From: a virus
Taxonomy: Duplodnaviria > Caudoviricetes
DNA length: 50,847 bases
IMG/VR virus record: IMGVR_UViG_3300035678_000003
Location: 1-50,847 of that record
Strand: one strand, 5' to 3'
Shown: piece by piece, positions 497 through 12,722 of the stretch
Layout of the letters: each line of letters starts with the position of its first letter
Numbering within the stretch: position 1 is the stretch's first letter
Program-made: the position numbers and the translations under genes
The notes under the pieces: generated by a model
Seen by the model: the letters and a program-made list of their open reading frames with translations, nothing else
The model's database searches: none
Told to the model about the DNA's origin: nothing

Positions 497-539
497 CAGA
501 CGGGCCCCGGTGGATCCTCTCCCGCCGGGGCCCTTGTCT
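497..539. terminator. probable bidirectional terminator
   Basis: gggccccggtgg / ccgccggggccc stem abutting the RusA stop codon. Confidence 0.6.
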
Positions 540-946
540 TATGGAGCGTCAGTGCCGCGTAGCATCGAGGTACCGGGAGACGGCCCGTACCAGAATTCGG
601 TGCGAGGGTGGTCACGGTCCAGGTGTAGGCCGACGGTCGAGTACATCGTGATCTGGCTGTCGTCTACCCACAGGATGCCGTTCCCGCAGTCGAGAATGTG
701 CTTCAGCAGATTATCCAGATCGACCACCTGACGCGTCGCCCGATAGAACCGCGCGCCGATGAAGACGTTTCCCGTGAGCAGCGGTAGCTTTCGTTCCTGC
801 AGGGCCTCGCGGGTCCGGACCTCGGCCGCCTTATCCTTCGGGTCCTGGTGCGTCCGGCCCCCGCCCCGGCTGATGCGCGGACGCATCTTGGCGTGCGGCT
901 GCCAGTCCAGGATGAGGTACTCGGGTCCGCCCAGTTCGCTATGCAC
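539..946 (-). CDS. rusA: RusA-like Holliday junction resolvase
   Basis: DLDNLLKHILD...LWVDDSQI catalytic motif typical of RusA. Confidence 0.9.
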   Translation of the reverse strand: MHSELGGPEYLILDWQPHAKMRPRISRGGGRTHQDPKDKAAEVRTREALQERKLPLLTGNVFIGARFYRATRQVVDLDNLLKHILDCGNGILWVDDSQITMYSTVGLHLDRDHPRTEFWYGPSPGTSMLRGTDAP

Positions 947-1223
947 CGGACGGCTCCTCGTTGACCACGGGGGCGAGCTTCTCGGCCGCCGCGAGCTCCC
1001 GCCGGGCGAACTCGTCGGCGTAGGCGCGGTCGACGCCCTCGTGCTGGCGCATCTTCGCCTCGATCTGCTCCTCGATCGACCAGTCGAACAGCTTCGAGAT
1101 GCGCAGGATCAGGTCGGTAGACGGGGTGCGGTTCCCGGACCGAATTCGGCTGATCGTCGCGTGGGAGACACCGAGACTGTCTCCCAGCGCGACGTTTGAC
1201 AGTGCGTTGGTGTCTTCGCTCAT
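939..1223 (-). CDS. XRE/Cro-like helix-turn-helix DNA-binding protein
   Basis: LGDSLGVSHATISRIRSGNRTPS HTH; start chosen 8 nt after a minus-strand TACAAT box (possibly leaderless); alternative start at 1232. Confidence 0.85.
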   Translation of the reverse strand: MSEDTNALSNVALGDSLGVSHATISRIRSGNRTPSTDLILRISKLFDWSIEEQIEAKMRQHEGVDRAYADEFARRELAAAEKLAPVVNEEPSGA

Positions 1224-1230
1224 AGCAACC

Positions 1231-1313
1231 ATTGTACCCTGCGGGTAAAGTATTCGTCGTGGTAAGCTCGACCAGCCCAGGGGTTTTGGCCAGCCGTACC
1301 AGTGTGGTAAAAT
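1231..1313. promoter_or_regulatory. divergent promoter region with operator-like palindromes at 1234..1248 and 1296..1310
   Basis: GTACCCTGCGGGTAA overlapping minus-strand TACAAT; GTACCAGTGTGGTAA overlapping plus-strand TGGTAAAAT. Confidence 0.7.
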
Positions 1314-6242: not shown

Positions 6243-8066
6243 ATGCACAACCCGACGTTCGAGGCGATCTGCACCGCCGTGGAGGAGCAGACTGGTTATC
6301 CGCCCAAGGGCAGCGACACCCGCAAGAAGGGGGTCTGCCCGGCCCACGAAGACACCAAACCCTCGCTGTCGATCCGCTGGGACGCGGAGAAGCTCGTGGT
6401 CGGAGTGACCTGCTGGAGCGGGTGCACGTTCGACGAGATCGTTAAGTCCCTGGATCTGACGAAGGAAGATTTCCGGGACAAGCTTCCCGGTGCCCGTTCC
6501 GGCCGACGGGGTGCCAGCCGGACCAAGCGTGCGCCGAAAGCCACCGAGGCCGACGACGAGCAAACGAGCGGCAAGCGCGGGGCCCCGGAACCCGGCCGCA
6601 ACGAGGTGGCGCGATACCCCTACACCGACGAGACCGGGAAGGTCCTGTACTACAACGTCCGGTTTGAGCCGAAAGACTTCCGTATGGCGGGGCCGGATGG
6701 GCAGATGAAAGCCCTTCCAAAGAACCTGCGGCGCGTCCCCTACAACCTCCCGAAGCTGCTGGCCGCAATCGAGGCTGGCGAGGTCGTGTACTGGGTCGAG
6801 GGCGAGAAGGATGTCCACTCGCTCGCCGAGAAGGGCGTGGTCGCCACAACGTCCGCTGGCGGAGGAGGCACCCCGCCCGAGCCCGCCTGGGCTGCCCTGT
6901 TCGAGGGCGCGCACCTTGTCGTGGTCGGCGACAAGGACAAGACCGGGCAGAAATACGCGAAGAATATCGCGAAGCTGGTCGTCAATGAGGTAGCGTCGGT
7001 CCGGGTAGCGCAAGCCGCGACCCCGCAGGCCAAGAGCGACGTCACGGACCATCTCGCTGCCGGGTACCGCCTGGACCAGCTCGATTGGCAGCCGATGCGC
7101 TCGATCCGGCGCACGCGCTGGACGATGTCGGATCTGATGAGCACCCCGCCCGAGCCGCTGCGCTGGGCCCTGCCCGGCGTCATCCCCGAGGGGCTCACCC
7201 TGTTGGTCGGGGCCCCGAAGGCGGGCAAATCGTGGTTTAACCTCAACCTCGTGACCGCCCTGACCACGGGCCGCCCCGTCGAGGTGTTCGGGTGGGGCCA
7301 GGACCTGGAGCCCTGCCCGTCCCTGTACCTGGCTCTGGAGGACCCGCACCGCCGGGTTTACGACCGGATGAACCAGATCACGCGAGGGCTCGACTTCAAA
7401 GCGCACCGCGCGGGTGACGTGTGGCTATCGCTGGACCCGCTGCATTCCGGCGGCCGGGACGAAATTGAGCGGTGGCTAGAGAAGAACCCGACCGCCCGAA
7501 TGATCGCGGTCGACGTGCTGGCAAAGGTGCGCGACGGCGACGAGGGCCAGACGATGTACCAAGCCGACTACGAGGCCGTGGGCGCGCTGAAGGATATCGC
7601 CGACGACTACGGGATCGGCGTGGTCGTCACCCACCACGACCGCAAGAAGACCGACGACGACTTCGTAAACATGGTGTCCGGCACCAAGGGCGTCACGGGT
7701 GCGGCGGACACGATTCTGTACTTGGAGCGGAAACGCGGCTCCGACGAGGGCACGCTCAAGAGCGAGTCGCGCGACGTGGAGAGCTGTACATACAAAATGC
7801 AATTCGTGCGTGAATTCGGTCGCTGGCAGATCCTGGAGCGATTGGACCCGGATGCCGAGCCGTCGCCCAACGCCGAGCCGAAGATGGCGCTCGCCGACCA
7901 GATCAGCCAGGTCCTGATGCACCGGGGCGAGTCGAGCCTCAAGGATGTGGCGAAGGTGCTCGACGTGCCCGAGGCTACGGTCAAGCGTGCGGCTGCCGAC
8001 GCGCGCGAGAATGGGGCGCTGAACCAGACCTCAGACGGCAAGTGGTACGTCCCTAAGGTGAACTGA
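6243..8066 (+). CDS. DNA primase-helicase (Zn-finger + TOPRIM + AAA_25/RepA-like helicase)
   Basis: CPAHEDTKPSL..CWSGC, VEGEKD, DKD, GAPKAGKS Walker A, VVTHHDRK. Confidence 0.92.
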   Translation: MHNPTFEAICTAVEEQTGYPPKGSDTRKKGVCPAHEDTKPSLSIRWDAEKLVVGVTCWSGCTFDEIVKSLDLTKEDFRDKLPGARSGRRGASRTKRAPKATEADDEQTSGKRGAPEPGRNEVARYPYTDETGKVLYYNVRFEPKDFRMAGPDGQMKALPKNLRRVPYNLPKLLAAIEAGEVVYWVEGEKDVHSLAEKGVVATTSAGGGGTPPEPAWAALFEGAHLVVVGDKDKTGQKYAKNIAKLVVNEVASVRVAQAATPQAKSDVTDHLAAGYRLDQLDWQPMRSIRRTRWTMSDLMSTPPEPLRWALPGVIPEGLTLLVGAPKAGKSWFNLNLVTALTTGRPVEVFGWGQDLEPCPSLYLALEDPHRRVYDRMNQITRGLDFKAHRAGDVWLSLDPLHSGGRDEIERWLEKNPTARMIAVDVLAKVRDGDEGQTMYQADYEAVGALKDIADDYGIGVVVTHHDRKKTDDDFVNMVSGTKGVTGAADTILYLERKRGSDEGTLKSESRDVESCTYKMQFVREFGRWQILERLDPDAEPSPNAEPKMALADQISQVLMHRGESSLKDVAKVLDVPEATVKRAAADARENGALNQTSDGKWYVPKVN

Positions 8067-10132
8067 TGACGGTCCTGCGCGGATTCAAACCTAGCCAACT
8101 ACCCGACCTCGAAACCTTCGTTGCCGCTGACACCGAGACCTCCGGCCTGCACCCCGATGATGGCGGCCGGGTGGCCGTCGTGTCGGCCGCGTGGCACACG
8201 CCTTCGGGCAAGATCGAGTCGTGCGCCTTCCCGTTCTGGCAGGGCTTGTACGAGAAGCCCGACGTGCTGGAGAAGGCCGACTTCGGCTGGAAGGATTATG
8301 TCGAAGGGCCCGAGGTCCACGGGTACTTCAAGAATGGCAAACCCCGATCGAAGAAGATCCACCGGAAGTGGACGATCGAGGAGAAAATGGAGGCGCTCGG
8401 GGCTAACCCGAACCTCGGGCCGGAGGACTGGGCTATCCTGATCGAGTGGCTCCTGAAGGTACCGGGCCTGGTCTGGCACAACGCGCTGTTCGACCTCGTC
8501 GTGATGTACGCGGGCACCCCGGACTTCCCCGGCGTCGACCTGCTGCAGCACACGGCTTGGGACACCATGCTCGGGCAACGCGCCCTGGATCCGGAACACC
8601 CGCTCGCGCTGAAGGACACCGCCGAGCGGCTGTTCGACCGCCCGCCCACCGAACAAGACGCGCTGAAGGAGCACCTGAAATCGCGCAAGTTCCCGACCGC
8701 CGGTAAGAACGTGCGGTACGACTACGCCGACTGGGACGTGATGGAGGAGTACGCGGCAGTCGACACCGAGGACACGATCCAGCTCGCCCGGCACCAGTGG
8801 CACCGCTTCAGCGAGGGCGAGTCGAGCTGGGACCTGATGCACCACAACATGGACGTCATGGCCGCCCTGACCCGCATGGAGCAGCGCGGGGTGCCGTACA
8901 AGGCGGAGGAATCGTTGGTCTGGGCCGAGAAGCTCGACGCCCGGATCGCCGCCATGGTAGACGGGTTCCCGTTCAACCCGACCGCCCCGCAGGCGACTGA
9001 GTTCTTCTTCGGGCAGGGCGAGACCCAGCGCGGGGTGCACTGCCTCGGGCTTAAGCCCGTCAAGCTTACGGGCAACGGGAACGCGTCGCTTGATGGCGAG
9101 GTGGTGGACGAGCTGGCCGCTCGCGACGTGCCCTGGGCCAAGGAGTACCGCGAGTACGGAATGAGCCAGGACGCGGTCGGGAGGTACTACCGGGGGTACG
9201 CGGAAGCCACCGGGGAGGACGGCCGCCTGCGGACGCGCTTTCGGCAGACCGGGACCCGAGCGGGCCGCCTGTCGTGCGAGCGCGTCAACCTGCAGGCCAT
9301 CCCGCACGACCACCGCTTGCTCGCCGGTAACTCGGAGATCCTGGCGGAGGCTCCGAGCCCGCGCGCCCTGATTGAGATTCCCGAGGGCTACCGAGGGTTC
9401 CACATGGACCTCGCGCAGGCCGAGCTACGGGTTGCCGCCCTGGAGGCGCGGTGCGAGCCGATGCTGCAGTACTTCCACGAGGGACGCGACCCGCACGGCG
9501 AGACGGCTATCGGTCTGGGCCTCACCGCTGGCAAGGACGACCCGGATGGCATGGACTGGTACAAGGCGCGGTCCGTGATCGGGAAACGCTCGAACTTCTC
9601 GCTCGTCTTCGGCATCGGCCCTAAGAAGTTCCGCGAGGACCTGCGCAAGCAGTCCGGCATCGACTTCGGCATCAAGAAGGTGACCGAGATCCACAAGGAC
9701 TGGAACGCCCTATACCCCGAGTTCAGCCGCGCGATCAAGCGCCACATGTACGCGGCCGAGAAGCAGGGGTGGACGCCGATCAAGGGCGACCTGCGCCGTT
9801 ACTACACGCCGCTGGAGATGGGCATCGGGCCGGACGGCCGACGGCTGCAGTACAACGACCTGCACAAGGCGTTTAACCAGCGAGTACAGGGCCTGCTCGG
9901 CTGGTTCGGCCAGTATTGGCTCAAGAAGGCCGAACGGCACCTGTTGGACGCCGGGCTCGACGAGTTCGAGTGCGGCCTGCTGCTGCAGATTCACGACGCG
10001 CTGATGGTCATGGTCCCCGTAGGGATGGAGCACCTGGCCGAGGAGTGCGCCCAGATCGCCCGCGACATGTGGGTCGAGTGGTTCCCGGACGTCCCCGGCG
10101 GGGTGGACGTGGAGGAGTGGAACCACAAGTAG
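8066..10132 (+). CDS. family A DNA polymerase with 3'-5' exonuclease; DpoZ candidate
   Basis: DTETSG, HNALFD, GRLSC..NLQAIP, DLAQAELR, KRSNFSLVFG, QIHDA motifs; adjacent to purZ. Confidence 0.93.
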   Translation: MTVLRGFKPSQLPDLETFVAADTETSGLHPDDGGRVAVVSAAWHTPSGKIESCAFPFWQGLYEKPDVLEKADFGWKDYVEGPEVHGYFKNGKPRSKKIHRKWTIEEKMEALGANPNLGPEDWAILIEWLLKVPGLVWHNALFDLVVMYAGTPDFPGVDLLQHTAWDTMLGQRALDPEHPLALKDTAERLFDRPPTEQDALKEHLKSRKFPTAGKNVRYDYADWDVMEEYAAVDTEDTIQLARHQWHRFSEGESSWDLMHHNMDVMAALTRMEQRGVPYKAEESLVWAEKLDARIAAMVDGFPFNPTAPQATEFFFGQGETQRGVHCLGLKPVKLTGNGNASLDGEVVDELAARDVPWAKEYREYGMSQDAVGRYYRGYAEATGEDGRLRTRFRQTGTRAGRLSCERVNLQAIPHDHRLLAGNSEILAEAPSPRALIEIPEGYRGFHMDLAQAELRVAALEARCEPMLQYFHEGRDPHGETAIGLGLTAGKDDPDGMDWYKARSVIGKRSNFSLVFGIGPKKFREDLRKQSGIDFGIKKVTEIHKDWNALYPEFSRAIKRHMYAAEKQGWTPIKGDLRRYYTPLEMGIGPDGRRLQYNDLHKAFNQRVQGLLGWFGQYWLKKAERHLLDAGLDEFECGLLLQIHDALMVMVPVGMEHLAEECAQIARDMWVEWFPDVPGGVDVEEWNHK

Positions 10133-10158
10133 ACAGGGGTTTACCACCGTGGTAAGAT
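10130..10158 (+). promoter_or_regulatory. promoter and operator for the purZ operon
   Basis: TAGACA-17bp-TAAGAT; TTACCACCGTGGTAA at 10141..10155. Confidence 0.8.
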
Positions 10159-10193
10159 AGACCCTATTACCCTGCCCGATGGAGAGGAACAAC

Positions 10194-11354
10194 ATGTCAG
10201 GACGCCTTATCGTCGTGGTCGGCGGACAGTTCGGCAGCGAGGCCAAGGGCCACGTCGCTGCCCAGCTCGCCGAGTACCACGATGCGGATCTGGTCATCCG
10301 TACCGGCGGGCCGAACGCGGGCCACACCGTATACAGCCCCGCCCAGGTGGCACACGACGCGTCGACCGCCCACCCGTTCAAATTGCGGCAGCTGCCGACC
10401 GCCAGCGTGAGCAACCCCCGCTCGACGCTCGGAATCGCGGCCGGGGGGCTAATTGACCCCGAGCTGCTGGAGGAGGAGCTGAACTCGACCGACGCGAACC
10501 GCGTGCTGATCGACCCGGCCGCCACCATCCTGGAGCCGAAGCACCGCCACGCGGAGGAGGCCGACCCCGAGATGCAGTGGGGTTCGACCAAGGAAGGCAT
10601 CGGGGCCGCCCGTGCCGACCGTGTTCACCGGACGGCGCGCACGGCCGGGGACTGGTACAAGGAGTTCCCCAACAAGCGGGTCGCGCTGGCAGACCTGGCC
10701 CAGATCGCCCGCGACACGCTGCGACACGGTGGCGCGGTGCTGGTGGAGGCCGCCCAGGGCTACGGGCTCGGACTGCACACCGACTATTACCCGAAGACCA
10801 CATCGGCGGACTGCCGCGCGGTCGACGCACTGGCGGATGTTGGCCTGTCGCCCTGGTCCATTCCGTTCGTCGACCTGAACGTCTGGGTGGTCGTCCGCCC
10901 CTACCCGATCCGTGTGGCGGGGGAGTCCGGGCCGCTGGCAGGGGAGACCACCTGGGATGACCTCGGGCTGCCGGAGGAGCGGACCACAGTCACCAACAAG
11001 GTCCGGCGCGTCGGCGGCTGGGACCCCGAGCTGGTGTACAAGGCGATTCAGGCGAACGGGGGCGGCCTGGGTACCAACCCGAAGACCGTGCGCGTCGCCC
11101 TGACCATGGTCGACCAGGTGATCCCGAACCTGGCGAACGTCGGCTCGGGACACGAGCTGTTGAGCGCGGAGCTGCAGGACCTGTCCGACCTGATGGACTG
11201 GTTCCACCGGGTCGGCAACTGCGGGGCGGACGTCGGCATGATCACGACCTCGCCTTACTCGGCGGTGTTCGATATGGACGCGAACCCGATGGTCCGCGCC
11301 CTCACCCAGGCATCCAGGCTCGTCACGGAATCCCGCATGGCGGAACCCCTCTGA
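10194..11354 (+). CDS. purZ: PurZ (PurZ0-type) N6-succino-2-amino-2'-deoxyadenylate synthase, adenylosuccinate synthetase homolog
   Basis: GGQFGSEAKG (Ser at the PurA catalytic Asp), GPNAGHT, EAAQG, RTTVTNKVRRVG, LTMVDQ. Confidence 0.9.
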   Translation: MSGRLIVVVGGQFGSEAKGHVAAQLAEYHDADLVIRTGGPNAGHTVYSPAQVAHDASTAHPFKLRQLPTASVSNPRSTLGIAAGGLIDPELLEEELNSTDANRVLIDPAATILEPKHRHAEEADPEMQWGSTKEGIGAARADRVHRTARTAGDWYKEFPNKRVALADLAQIARDTLRHGGAVLVEAAQGYGLGLHTDYYPKTTSADCRAVDALADVGLSPWSIPFVDLNVWVVVRPYPIRVAGESGPLAGETTWDDLGLPEERTTVTNKVRRVGGWDPELVYKAIQANGGGLGTNPKTVRVALTMVDQVIPNLANVGSGHELLSAELQDLSDLMDWFHRVGNCGADVGMITTSPYSAVFDMDANPMVRALTQASRLVTESRMAEPL

Positions 11355-11836
11355 TGGCGGTCCACCAAGGGCCGGGGCTGTGTTACTGCGACTTGCTGGC
11401 ACAGCCCCACAAGGCCCATCAAGACGGAGTCGGCGGCATTTCGCTACAGACCGAGGAGGGTGCAGTGGTGTTCAACCCGGACCTGAGCAAGCCGACGGAG
11501 ACGTACGTCGGCGGAGGGCAGCGCGAGGCCAACGCGGGCCGCCCTCGCTACGACCTAATGTGGACCCGCAGCCAGCCGCTGGACGAGCAGATGCTGACGC
11601 GGGACGCCAAATGGATCGCCTACGGATCGGCGAAGTACGGCGAACGGAACTGGGAGGCATTTGAGGGCCCGGACGCCCTCGCCCGCTGCGAAGCGTCGCT
11701 CGGTCGGCACTACGCGGCCTTCATGCTGGGCGAGGACGACGAGGACCACGCGGCAGCTATCCGCGCCAATGTCCAGTTCATCGAGTACATCCGCTGGCGG
11801 ATGATCCCCGACGGAAGCACCGAAGGCCCATTCTAA
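11354..11836 (+). CDS. dATP/dGTP diphosphohydrolase-domain protein (DUF5664-like)
   Basis: GGQRE...GRPRYDL...YGSAKYGERNWE...RH...EDH.AA pattern; coupled to purZ by TGATG overlap. Confidence 0.8.
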   Translation: MAVHQGPGLCYCDLLAQPHKAHQDGVGGISLQTEEGAVVFNPDLSKPTETYVGGGQREANAGRPRYDLMWTRSQPLDEQMLTRDAKWIAYGSAKYGERNWEAFEGPDALARCEASLGRHYAAFMLGEDDEDHAAAIRANVQFIEYIRWRMIPDGSTEGPF

Positions 11837-11846
11837 GGAGAAATTC

Positions 11847-12722
11847 GTGTCCCTGACTGCCTACCTTGCCCGACCGATCGACCTGTCGTCCCTGACCGGC
11901 GCGCAGTCCAATCACCTGGCGTTCGTCGAGGACTACCTCCTCGAACGCGGCGTGGTCGTCTTCAAGCCCGCCGGAGCGTTCGCAGTGCCGCCCGAGACGC
12001 CCCCGCACGGCGCAATCCAGGACATCAACCGCTACGCCCTGGAACGATCCGACCTGCTCGTCGCGCTGTACCCCGAGGCCGTCGGGGTAGGCACCGCGAT
12101 GGAGCTGGAGTACGCCCGTGCGGCCAAAAAGCCCATCCTCGTCGTAACCGACGTGGCCCACAAGTCGTGGTCGCTGGCGGGGGTCCCGAAGGCCGTGAAG
12201 ACCCAGTTCCCGACGGGGTCCGAGGTCGAAGCCGTCGTCGCCTGGGCCCACCTGGCGCAGACCGAGCGGGAGAAGGATGGGGCGGCTGCTCGCCCGGTGC
12301 TCAAGTTCCAGCTCGACGACGATGCCAAGATGCCGACGCGTGGCTACGCCGGAGACGCCGGGTACGACCTGTACGTCCAAGAGGACATCGTGATTGGCCC
12401 GGACGCGTTCGCCGACGTGCCCATGGGCTGCGCGGTCGAGCTGCCGCCCGGCGTCTGGGGGTTCATCACCGGTCGCTCGTCGACCCTGCGCAAGCACAAC
12501 CTGCTGGTGACCACCGGAATCATCGACACGGGCTACCGAGGGCCGCTGTTCGCCGGGGTCAAGAATCTCGACTTCAACCGCCCGTTCACGGCGGAGAAGG
12601 GAACCCGGCTCGCCCAGCTCATCCCGCTCCCGAACCTCGCGGACGGTATGCTGGCGGTAGAAGCGCAAACCCTCGACCCGTCCGAGCGGGGAACCGCCGG
12701 ATTCGGGTCGTCTGGCCACTAG
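11847..12722 (+). CDS. fusion: nucleoside 2-deoxyribosyltransferase/N-glycosidase-like domain + trimeric dUTPase
   Basis: N-term AYLARP...SDLLVA...GTAMELEYARAAKKP; C-term AGYDL, GRSS, GIIDTGYRG, RLAQL, RGTAGFGSSG. Confidence 0.85.
   Translation: MSLTAYLARPIDLSSLTGAQSNHLAFVEDYLLERGVVVFKPAGAFAVPPETPPHGAIQDINRYALERSDLLVALYPEAVGVGTAMELEYARAAKKPILVVTDVAHKSWSLAGVPKAVKTQFPTGSEVEAVVAWAHLAQTEREKDGAAARPVLKFQLDDDAKMPTRGYAGDAGYDLYVQEDIVIGPDAFADVPMGCAVELPPGVWGFITGRSSTLRKHNLLVTTGIIDTGYRGPLFAGVKNLDFNRPFTAEKGTRLAQLIPLPNLADGMLAVEAQTLDPSERGTAGFGSSGH

What the first reader, a model, noticed from the sequence alone, without database searches (positions are those of the whole stretch)
8066..12722. Probable 2-aminoadenine (Z) genome pathway with a non-canonical gene set: PolA - PurZ0 - dATP/dGTP diphosphohydrolase - NDT::dUTPase, no DatZ
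Seen: a PurA homolog with GGQFGSEAKG (Ser where PurA has the catalytic Asp in GDEGKG) and a TTVT..VRR loop. It lies right after a family A polymerase and is tightly coupled to two nucleotide-hydrolase-like genes under its own promoter. Established: PurZ converts dGMP to the dZMP precursor, and host PurB and kinases finish dZTP. Characterised Z phages use an HD-domain dATPase (DatZ) and a MazG/DUF550-like MazZ to remove dATP and supply dGMP. Here I find no HD-domain or MazG-type gene anywhere in the genome. Inference: the phage puts Z in place of A using a different set of pool-editing enzymes.
Basis: partly seen in the sequence, partly recalled or inferred. Interest (0 to 1): 0.9.

Follow-up and report, generated by a model that had tools for sequence, protein, structure and literature searches.

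The report
Known PurZ0-type Z-DNA gene module
This uncultured phage carries the gene set that lets some phages of actinobacteria replace adenine with 2-aminoadenine, and the same gene set was described and tested biochemically in Arthrobacter phage Wayne in 2026, so it is a new example of a known system.

Summary
Window 8066-12722 encodes four translationally packed genes.

- **PolA:** a family A polymerase that passes NCBI's DpoZ model.
- **PurA homologue:** it has Ser at the catalytic Asp position.
- **PF18909 protein:** 160 aa, from the family the 2026 paper calls DUF5664.
- **NDT::dUTPase fusion:** 291 aa.

The complete 50.8-kb genome has no HD/DatZ, MazG or DUF550 gene in six-frame searches.

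The claim of a new, non-canonical gene set does not hold. DpoZ, PurZ0, DUF5664 and an NDT-Dut fusion in this order is the architecture of Arthrobacter phage Wayne. Poubanne et al. (NAR 2026, PMC12884076) showed that:

- the Dut part (DutZ) and DUF5664 hydrolyse dATP and dGTP to dNMPs;
- the NDT part (DmtZ) cleaves dAMP and transfers deoxyribose-5-phosphate to the Z base.

All 98 PurZ0 genomes they surveyed carry dutZ.

In my trees the window's PurA homologue falls in the PurZ0 clade and its Dut domain in the clade of PurZ0-genome Duts. Its NDT domain keeps all six key DmtZ residues.

Two points are modestly new:
- the phage belongs to a PurZ0 subclade with no cultured member in my sample;
- its DUF5664 is a separate lineage from Wayne's.

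Z in the DNA remains inferred. Verdict: new member of a known kind, low to moderate interest.

The parts
6243..8066 (+). Primase/helicase (Toprim plus AAA_25). It is the upstream neighbour and its stop overlaps the PolA start (TGATG).
   Evidence: Pfam PF13481 at 97.2 bits and PF13155 at 22.2 bits; sequence. Wayne has a primase/polymerase gene upstream of its polymerase.
8066..10132 (+). Family A DNA polymerase of the DpoZ type found in PurZ0 phages of actinobacteria.
   Evidence: NF038381 at 394.3 bits against a cut-off of 350. The same model scores 1144.7 for the Wayne polymerase and 1372.7 for PermaG, whereas the PurZ-phage polymerases DMU1 and Bm1 hit NF038380 instead. 34% identity to Wayne gp47 over the full length, E 1e-102.
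10130..10158 (+). Promoter-like site TAGACA-17-TAAGAT overlapping the palindrome TTACCACCGTGGTAA (10141-10155), in the PolA/PurZ0 gap.
   Evidence: This is a consensus match only; function is not shown.
10179..11354 (+). PurZ0-type succino-amino-deoxyadenylate synthase. The likely start is at 10194.
   Evidence: Best PDB match is 7vf6 at E 1.1e-69, which PMC12884076 names as PurZ0 of Gordonia phage Archimedes. Weaker matches are archaeal PurA (1e-36), phiVC8 PurZ (1e-26) and S-2L PurZ (2e-22). Ser20 replaces the catalytic Asp. The protein lies inside the PurZ0 clade, SH-aLRT 100. 44% identity to Wayne PurZ0.
11354..11836 (+). Stand-alone PF18909 (DUF5664) protein, a putative dATP/dGTP pyrophosphohydrolase, with an N-terminal Cys/His-containing extension.
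   Evidence: PF18909 at 39.2 bits against a cut-off of 27 and 39.8 bits in the six-frame search. All 51 database proteins listed, the window's own among them, carry PF18909. Conserved KYGERNW, RH and DEDHAAA motifs. Wayne gp50 is PF18909 at 110.8 bits and is the enzyme assayed in PMC12884076.
11847..12281 (+). N-terminal NDT-superfamily domain of the fusion, DmtZ-like (dAMP N-glycosidase and deoxyribose-5-phosphate transferase to the Z base).
   Evidence: PF05014 at 29.1 bits against a cut-off of 28.8. Y6, D12, P41, N61, E86 and W108 align with Y6, D12, P57, N77, E103 and W124 of the Gordonia-phage DmtZ; these are the residues named and mutated in PMC12884076.
12282..12722 (+). C-terminal trimeric-dUTPase-family domain of the fusion, DutZ-like (dATP/dGTP/dUTP to dNMP).
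   Evidence: PF00692 at 87.8 bits. The whole fusion is 34% identical to Wayne gp52, E 5e-47, and 37% to Galactica gp67. The domain lies in the clade of Duts from PurZ0 genomes, SH-aLRT 98, apart from 8 canonical phage Duts.

Best explanation
The region is the nucleotide-metabolism and replication module of a PurZ0-type 2-aminoadenine (Z) genome phage. It has the same architecture as Arthrobacter phage Wayne.

Proposed mechanism, inferred by homology to assayed enzymes:
1. The DutZ domain and the DUF5664 protein hydrolyse dATP to dAMP. This removes the competitor of dZTP.
2. The same two enzymes hydrolyse dGTP to dGMP, which is the PurZ0 substrate.
3. [quoted passage not shown]
4. PurZ0 condenses dGMP with aspartate. 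The phosphate donor is GTP according to Tong et al. 2023, which I recall but could not read.
5. Host PurB and kinases finish dZTP. This genome has no PurB of its own.
6. The DpoZ-type polymerase incorporates dZTP.

Shown here: gene identities, clade memberships, catalytic-residue conservation, operon structure, and the absence of DatZ, MazZ and DUF550. Inferred: all enzyme activities, and the presence of Z in the virion DNA.
For: - Family assignments.
- Closest solved structure is PurZ0.
- PurZ0 clade membership: SH-aLRT 100 for 23 rows that include Wayne, Frizzle, Galactica, PermaG, Olihed and the window, with the PurZ clade separate at 100.
- Identity is bimodal in tblastn against phages: 38-47% to PurZ0 of phages of actinobacteria and 26-33% to PurZ and other PurA-like hits.
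- The DpoZ model for PurZ0 phages is passed.
- The fusion matches Wayne gp52 and Galactica gp67 over its full length.
- All six DmtZ key residues are kept.
- The Dut domain lies in the clade of PurZ0-genome Duts.
- Gene order matches Wayne: primase, polymerase, PurZ0, DUF5664, NDT-Dut.
- 75 of 80 IMG/VR PurZ0 loci have a Dut homologue beside PurZ0, and 0 of 80 have DatZ, MazZ or DUF550.
- Biochemistry of the Wayne and Ghobes enzymes: PMC12884076.
Against: - There is no direct evidence of Z in this DNA.
- The PurZ0 score against NCBIfam NF038379 is 289.4 bits, just under the cut-off of 300. Four known PurZ0/PurZ proteins score 345-396.
- The DpoZ score of 394 is far below that of isolates (1145-1373), so both enzymes are divergent.
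- The DUF5664 protein is barely alignable with the assayed Wayne gp50: BLASTP E 0.11, and 39 against 111 bits on PF18909. Transfer of function to it is the weakest link.
- Its structure model is mediocre (pLDDT 70).
- The NDT hit passes Pfam's cut-off by only 0.3 bits.
- Ser at the Asp13 position also occurs in cellular short PurA-like genes. That residue alone is therefore not diagnostic.
Confidence: 0.85

Rival explanations
1. One reading: a genuinely new Z pathway variant whose pool-editing enzymes have not been described.
For: DatZ, MazG and DUF550 are truly absent. The DUF5664 gene is a different lineage from Wayne's. The phage sits in a PurZ0 subclade with no cultured member in my sample.
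Against: The gene set and its order match Wayne. Its enzymes were assayed and named DutZ, DmtZ and DUF5664-1 in PMC12884076. The 2025 preprint says the same of Wayne-like clades.
Confidence: 0.05
2. No Z genome. The PurA homologue is an auxiliary adenylosuccinate synthetase, the Dut domain is an ordinary dUTPase, the NDT domain is a salvage enzyme, and the polymerase is an ordinary PolA.
For: The PurZ NCBIfam score is below its cut-off. Ser at the Asp13 position also exists in cellular PurA-like genes. In PMC12884076 the Wayne Dut domain still prefers dUTP kinetically.
Against: The protein nests deep inside the PurZ0 clade, not with the cellular short PurA-like sequences. The polymerase passes the DpoZ model. 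The Dut lies in the clade of PurZ0-genome Duts. The NDT domain keeps Asp12, which the paper's model proposes for dAMP specificity and whose mutation abolished activity, and the other key residues. All four genes co-occur in one packed cluster.
Confidence: 0.05
3. The phage has a Z genome, but the 160-aa PF18909 protein has a role other than dATP/dGTP pyrophosphohydrolysis, for example another nucleotide substrate. Its divergence and its extra Cys/His N-terminal segment would fit that.
For: It aligns only weakly with the assayed Wayne gp50. Of the 80 IMG/VR loci holding its best relatives (at most 50% identity), 0 have a PurZ homologue within 5 kb, so the family is mostly used by phages without PurZ. 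Fold searches were uninformative.
Against: It is translationally coupled to PurZ0. The conserved acidic DEDH motif is kept.
Confidence: 0.1

Closest known systems
Arthrobacter phage Wayne Z module (DpoZ, PurZ0, DUF5664-1, DmtZ-DutZ fusion; PMC12884076)
   Same: Same gene order and same four families, including the NDT-Dut fusion. Identities are polymerase 34%, PurZ0 44% and fusion 34% over full length. Neither has DatZ, MazZ or DUF550.
   Different: Wayne has an HNH gene and a 73-aa ORF inside the cluster. The DUF5664 proteins are hardly alignable (E 0.11) and fall in separate clades. The window's PurZ0 belongs to a sister subclade with no cultured member in my sample.
Gordonia phage Ghobes/Archimedes type (PurZ0 with separate DmtZ and DutZ genes; PDB 7vf6)
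   Same: PurZ0 is the best PDB match. DmtZ catalytic residues are conserved with the related Gordonia phage Frizzle. The Dut lies in the same clade.
   Different: In these phages DmtZ and DutZ are two genes, there is no DUF5664, and an unrelated helical gene follows purZ0 (Frizzle gp50).
Streptomyces phage Galactica / Hiyaa (closest PurZ0 among isolates, 45-47%)
   Same: PurZ0 followed downstream by an NDT::Dut fusion of 291 aa, 37% identical to the window's.
   Different: The genome is about 82 kb. The polymerase is not adjacent. A gp66-type gene follows purZ0 instead of DUF5664, and the phage has its own PurB-like lyase.
Canonical PurZ systems (phiVC8/VP5, S-2L, Acinetobacter SH-Ab 15497/DMU1): PurZ, DatZ, and MazZ or DUF5664-DUF550
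   Same: The logic is the same: deplete dATP, supply dGMP, make the dZMP precursor with a Ser-bearing PurA homologue, and in most cases replicate with a DpoZ.
   Different: The PurZ clade is different, as is the DpoZ family (NF038380 rather than NF038381). An HD-domain DatZ and a MazZ or DUF550 are present there and absent here.

Membership tests
PurZ0 clade of PurZ (Tong 2023; Poubanne 2026) | PurA-family protein (PF00709) | tested here: met
   109.3 bits against a cut-off of 27.
PurZ0 clade of PurZ (Tong 2023; Poubanne 2026) | Ser in place of the catalytic Asp13 of E. coli PurA | tested here: met
   GGQFGSEAKG, with Ser20 invariant in 10 of 10 aligned PurZ0/PurZ sequences. The paper reports Ser in 100% of 147 phage PurZ-group sequences.
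PurZ0 clade of PurZ (Tong 2023; Poubanne 2026) | Groups with PurZ0, not with PurZ or cellular PurA | tested here: met
   Tree of 38 rows: PurZ0 clade SH-aLRT 100 includes the window, and the PurZ clade is separate at 100. PDB ranking is PurZ0 7vf6 at 1e-69, archaeal PurA at 1e-36 and PurZ at 1e-26.
PurZ0 clade of PurZ (Tong 2023; Poubanne 2026) | Uses dGMP plus aspartate, with GTP as phosphate donor | not testable with these tools
   This needs an enzyme assay. Tong et al. 2023 is not held, so I did not check the GTP-pocket residues against it.
NCBIfam NF038379 (PurZ naming model) | Score at or above the curated cut-off of 300 bits | tested here: not met
   289.4 bits. Four known PurZ0/PurZ proteins score 345-396. 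This is an annotation threshold, not a biochemical criterion, and it shows divergence.
DpoZ of PurZ0 phages (NCBIfam NF038381; 'DpoZ-1' in PMC12884076) | Passes the family model and is homologous over full length to the Wayne polymerase | tested here: met
   394.3 bits against a cut-off of 350. 34% identity, E 1e-102, to Wayne gp47. Wayne and PermaG hit the same model.
DpoZ of PurZ0 phages (NCBIfam NF038381; 'DpoZ-1' in PMC12884076) | Prefers dZTP over dATP | not testable with these tools
   This needs a polymerase assay.
DutZ (PMC12884076) | Trimeric dUTPase family with the five motifs | tested here: met
   PF00692 at 87.8 bits. AGYDL, GRSS, GIIDTGYRG, RLAQL and RGTAGFGSSG are visible in the alignment. 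The motif names are recalled.
DutZ (PMC12884076) | Monophyletic with Duts of PurZ0 genomes | tested here: met
   12 PurZ0-genome Duts, including the window's, form a clade at SH-aLRT 98, apart from 8 canonical phage Duts. The sample is small and the search was quick.
DutZ (PMC12884076) | Hydrolyses dATP and dGTP to dNMP | not testable with these tools
   This needs an enzyme assay.
DmtZ (PMC12884076) | NDT-superfamily domain | tested here: met
   PF05014 at 29.1 bits against a cut-off of 28.8, a marginal pass. It aligns over full length with the Wayne and Galactica fusions.
DmtZ (PMC12884076) | Catalytic triad Tyr6/Asn77/Glu103 plus Asp12, Pro57 and Trp124 (Ghobes numbering) | tested here: met
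   All six columns are invariant in the 4-sequence alignment. The window residues are Y6, D12, P41, N61, E86 and W108.
DmtZ (PMC12884076) | dAMP hydrolase activity and dR5P transfer to Z | not testable with these tools
   This needs an enzyme assay.
DUF5664 / PF18909 | Passes the Pfam model | tested here: met
   39.2 bits against a cut-off of 27 and 39.8 bits in the six-frame search.
DUF5664-1 (the Wayne/Arthrobacter-phage lineage) | Groups with Wayne gp50 | tested here: not met
   BLASTP E 0.11. In the tree, the window's group (SH-aLRT 96) and the Wayne group (95) are separate, with proteins from loci without PurZ between them. Branches are long and the search was quick.
Canonical DatZ / MazZ / DUF550 set | HD-domain dATPase and a MazG or DUF550 pyrophosphohydrolase present | tested here: not met
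   No hit for PF01966, PF12917, PF13023, PF03819 or PF04447, or for the S-2L, DMU1 or VP5 proteins.

The most novel reading that the evidence does not exclude
The slot directly after purZ0 is a swappable cassette, filled by non-homologous genes in different lineages.

- Most PurZ0 loci (68 of 80) carry an uncharacterised four-helix 'gp66-like' domain there.
- Arthrobacter phages carry DUF5664-1.
- The window's subclade, which has no cultured member in my sample, carries a third DUF5664 lineage with a Cys/His N-terminal extension. It appears to have been recruited independently from phages without PurZ.

If the slot always holds the dGMP-supplying or dATP-removing pyrophosphohydrolase, the gp66-like domain would be a further, unrecognised enzyme family of the Z pathway.
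Probability: 0.3. Interest if true: 0.5.

Novelty: new member of a known kind. Interest (0 to 1): 0.3.

Why it matters
The finding extends the characterised PurZ0/DutZ/DmtZ system to a group of roughly 50-kb phages with no cultured member in my sample. In my sample this group is sister to the subclade that holds all five cultured isolates. It also adds a third DUF5664 lineage to the published picture of repeated, convergent recruitment of pool-editing enzymes. It does not open a new pathway. Its practical value is a divergent set of DpoZ, PurZ0, DutZ-DmtZ and DUF5664 sequences for comparative enzymology, and a pointer to the conserved, unstudied gene that follows purZ0 in most other PurZ0 phages.

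Tried and rejected
- **Close DNA relatives in phage records:** a megablast search of the region found none. The tool warns that the window's own record and near relatives may be left out.
- **Single-protein search of IMG/VR with the PurA homologue:** nothing found. An alignment-based search then worked.
- **Gene context of the closest DUF5664 homologues:** I used coincidence of contig lengths between instead. This is indirect evidence.
- **Fold of the DUF5664 protein:** the model has pLDDT 70.2, with only the C-terminal three helices confident. Foldseek against the PDB gave nothing at E of 0.001 or better; MazG, RS21-C6 and HisE-type entries appear only among rows with E above 3. VIA-align wide gave a best Z of 6.5 among generic helical matches. 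This shows neither that the fold is MazG-like nor that it is not.
- **The gp66-like domain as a hidden DUF5664/MazG relative:**
  - hhalign against the DUF5664 alignment gave probability 0.3%.
  - No Pfam hit better than E 0.011, and none near a cut-off, in the 14 members scanned.
  - A good model (pLDDT 89, four helices) has no Foldseek PDB match at E of 0.001 or better.
  - The domain remains unexplained.
- **Other nucleotide-metabolism genes in the window:**
  - 20 further ORFs were scanned with Pfam. They gave RusA, an HTH, PD-(D/E)XK, a below-cut-off HNH hit and three other sub-threshold hits. AAA_24 and a sub-threshold DUF669 hit came.
  - tblastn with Galactica PurB found nothing in the window.
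  - No tRNA genes were found.
  - ORFs shorter than about 90 aa and most structural genes were not scanned.
- **Tong et al. 2023:** not held. The GTP-donor statement and any GTP-pocket motif rest on recall and were not checked.
- **Supplements of PMC12884076:** not seen. They may list which genomes carry DUF5664 and the gp66-like gene.
- **One sentence in that paper's Results:** it assigns ATP to PurZ0 and GTP to PurZ 'respectively', which conflicts with the paper's own Introduction. I followed the Introduction.


Full report
**What is there.** The window is a complete virus record of 50,847 bp with direct terminal repeats and 64-68% G+C. Between 6243 and 12722 lie five + strand genes, two pairs of them joined by overlapping stop and start codons.

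| Coordinates | Gene | Key evidence |
|---|---|---|
| 6243-8066 | Primase/helicase | Pfam PF13481, PF13155 |
| 8066-10132 | Family A polymerase | PF00476 |
| 10179-11354 (start probably 10194) | PurA homologue | PF00709 |
| 11354-11836 | 160-aa PF18909 protein | 39.2 bits, cut-off 27 |
| 11847-12722 | 291-aa NDT::dUTPase fusion | PF05014 and PF00692 |

Stop and start codons overlap as TGATG at two junctions, and a Shine-Dalgarno sequence precedes the fusion gene. The 46-bp gap before the PurA homologue holds a promoter-like site. That site overlaps one of 12 copies of the palindrome TTACCA-N3-TGGTAA, against 0.02 copies expected by chance.

**Absence of the canonical pool editors.**
- Six-frame searches of the whole genome found no HD domain (PF01966, PF12917, PF13023), no MazG (PF03819) and no DUF550 (PF04447). 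Each of the three HD models and the MazG model matched above its curated cut-off in at least 4 of the 14 control genomes. The DUF550 model matched above its cut-off in none of them, so its negative result has no positive control.
- The S-2L DatZ protein gave nothing in the genome search. DatZ of S-2L, DMU1 and VP5 and MazZ of S-2L gave nothing significant by tblastn.
- PF12917 and PF13023 were included because the DMU1 DatZ hits those models and not PF01966.

**Identity of each gene.**

*PurA homologue.*
- Its best solved relative is 7vf6 (E 1.1e-69). Archaeal PurA (1e-36), phiVC8 PurZ (1e-26) and S-2L PurZ (2e-22) follow.
- PMC12884076 names 7vf6 as PurZ0 of Gordonia phage Archimedes.
- In a 38-row tree the window falls in a PurZ0 clade (SH-aLRT 100) with Wayne, Frizzle, Galactica, PermaG and Olihed. 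The PurZ clade is separate at 100.
- Ser20 replaces the catalytic Asp.

*Polymerase.*
- It passes NCBIfam NF038381 (394 bits, cut-off 350).
- The Wayne and PermaG polymerases hit the same model. Polymerases of PurZ phages hit NF038380 instead.

*Fusion protein.*
- It aligns end to end with Wayne gp52 (34%, E 5e-47) and Galactica gp67 (37%).
- Its NDT domain keeps all six residues that the 2026 paper identifies in DmtZ. These are the Tyr/Asn/Glu triad, Asp12, Pro57 and Trp124 (paper passages).
- Its Dut domain groups with Duts of 11 other PurZ0 genomes (SH-aLRT 98), away from 8 canonical phage Duts.
- It shares the clade's signature residues, such as Trp204 and Gly in the GRSS motif. This comparison is exploratory and the sample is small.

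*160-aa protein.*
- It passes PF18909. Wayne gp50 hits the same model. The paper calls gp50 the DUF5664 protein and shows that it converts dATP, dGTP and dUTP to dNMPs.

**What is already known.** Poubanne et al. (NAR 2026, PMC12884076; I read the Introduction, Results and Discussion and one Methods passage, but no supplements) characterised this gene set.
- DutZ and DUF5664-1 hydrolyse dATP and dGTP.
- DmtZ hydrolyses dAMP to adenine and transfers deoxyribose-5-phosphate to Z.
- All 98 PurZ0 genomes have dutZ, 85 have dmtZ, and 77 of these are fused.
- PurZ0 phages use DutZ, DmtZ and DUF5664 where PurZ phages use DatZ and MazZ or DUF550.

Yang et al. (bioRxiv 2025; abstract and passages read) independently tie NDT and dUTPase to Wayne-like dZ phages that lack DatZ and MazZ. 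My own survey agrees: of the 80 best IMG/VR PurZ0 loci, 75 have a Dut homologue nearby and none has DatZ, MazZ or DUF550.

**What is particular to this phage.**

1. *A subclade without cultured members in my sample.*
   - Its PurZ0 lies in a subclade of 15 rows (SH-aLRT 98) made only of metagenomic sequences. The sister subclade holds all five cultured isolates sampled (SH-aLRT 96).
   - The closest database PurZ0s are 61-66% identical, and several come from contigs of 50.7-50.8 kb.
   - The best isolate match is 47%.

2. *A separate DUF5664 lineage.*
   - Its DUF5664 is not the Wayne type: pairwise E is 0.11 and the two fall in separate clades in a quick tree.
   - None of the 80 IMG/VR PurZ0 loci has a homologue of it.
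   - None of the 80 IMG/VR loci holding its relatives has a PurZ homologue within 5 kb.
   - The pattern fits a third, independent recruitment of a DUF5664 gene from phages without PurZ. It parallels what the paper proposes for DUF5664-1.

3. *Two missing genes.*
   - The window lacks a PurB gene. 17 of the 80 PurZ0 loci have one, including its nearest IMG/VR relatives.
   - It also lacks the gp66-like gene that follows purZ0 in 68 of the 80 loci.

**Limits.**
- Every activity, and the presence of Z in the DNA, is inferred from homology.
- The PurZ0 score is 10.6 bits below NCBI's naming cut-off.
- The NDT Pfam pass is marginal.
- The DUF5664 functional transfer spans a large sequence distance.
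- All trees used the quick search with SH-aLRT support only. Some rows were stop-to-stop translations.
- Tong et al. 2023 could not be read.

**Verdict.** This is a new, divergent member of a known kind.

Noticed in passing
window 1296, 2413, 10141, 13917, 17366, 20161, 26140, 27375, 30401, 31002, 47014, 49727: The palindrome TTACCA-N3-TGGTAA occurs 12 times at one mismatch or fewer, against 0.02 expected. Nearly all copies lie at gene starts or in gaps. It is probably a phage-specific promoter or operator element. One copy sits just before purZ0.
   Followed up: partly
L002:7742-8092, L005:6394-6744, L007:5403-5753, L008:5500-5850 and 68 of the 80 loci L014-L093: A conserved helical domain of about 100 aa is encoded right after purZ0 in most PurZ0 phages but is absent from this window. 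Its signature is WW..A..E, KA.EYG, ELG.YFY..GK..RW, SDDT..D.GVY.RM and GGWP. It has no significant Pfam family and no detectable link to DUF5664. The AF2 model is a four-helix bundle (pLDDT 89) with no PDB match.
   Followed up: partly
L288, L303, L321, L331, L266, L313, L262 (cellular genomes): Chromosomal short PurA-like genes of Binatia, Lacibacter, Bradyrhizobium, Mariprofundus, Nitrospira, Dehalococcoidia and Acidobacteriota read GGQ[FY]GSEGKG, with Ser at the Asp13 position. Ser alone therefore does not mark a phage PurZ. The search pattern required Ser, so no frequency can be given. In the tree these genes fall outside the phage clades.
   Followed up: partly
window 11354-11500 (N-terminal ~50 aa of the PF18909 protein) and homologues P0004-P0017: The close homologues share an N-terminal C.C ... 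PH ... CP segment that more distant PF18909 proteins lack. The window's copy keeps only C.C and PH. It may be a small metal-binding extension. It is modelled with low confidence.
   Followed up: no
L014:3820-4839, L015:3811-4839, L016:8051-9220 and 14 further PurZ0 loci: A PurB-like adenylosuccinate lyase gene sits in 17 of the 80 IMG/VR PurZ0 loci, including the window's nearest IMG/VR relatives. The window has none and must rely on host PurB.
   Followed up: partly
window 12282-12722 (Dut domain): Six alignment columns separate the 12 Duts of PurZ0 genomes from 8 canonical phage Duts. In fusion numbering they are F188, D190, W204, G209 of GRSS, F235 and I259. They are candidate determinants of purine dNTP acceptance.
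   Followed up: no
window 539-1232, - strand: A RusA-like resolvase and a CI/Cro-type HTH gene lie on the minus strand at the left end. No integrase was seen among the ORFs scanned.
   Followed up: no
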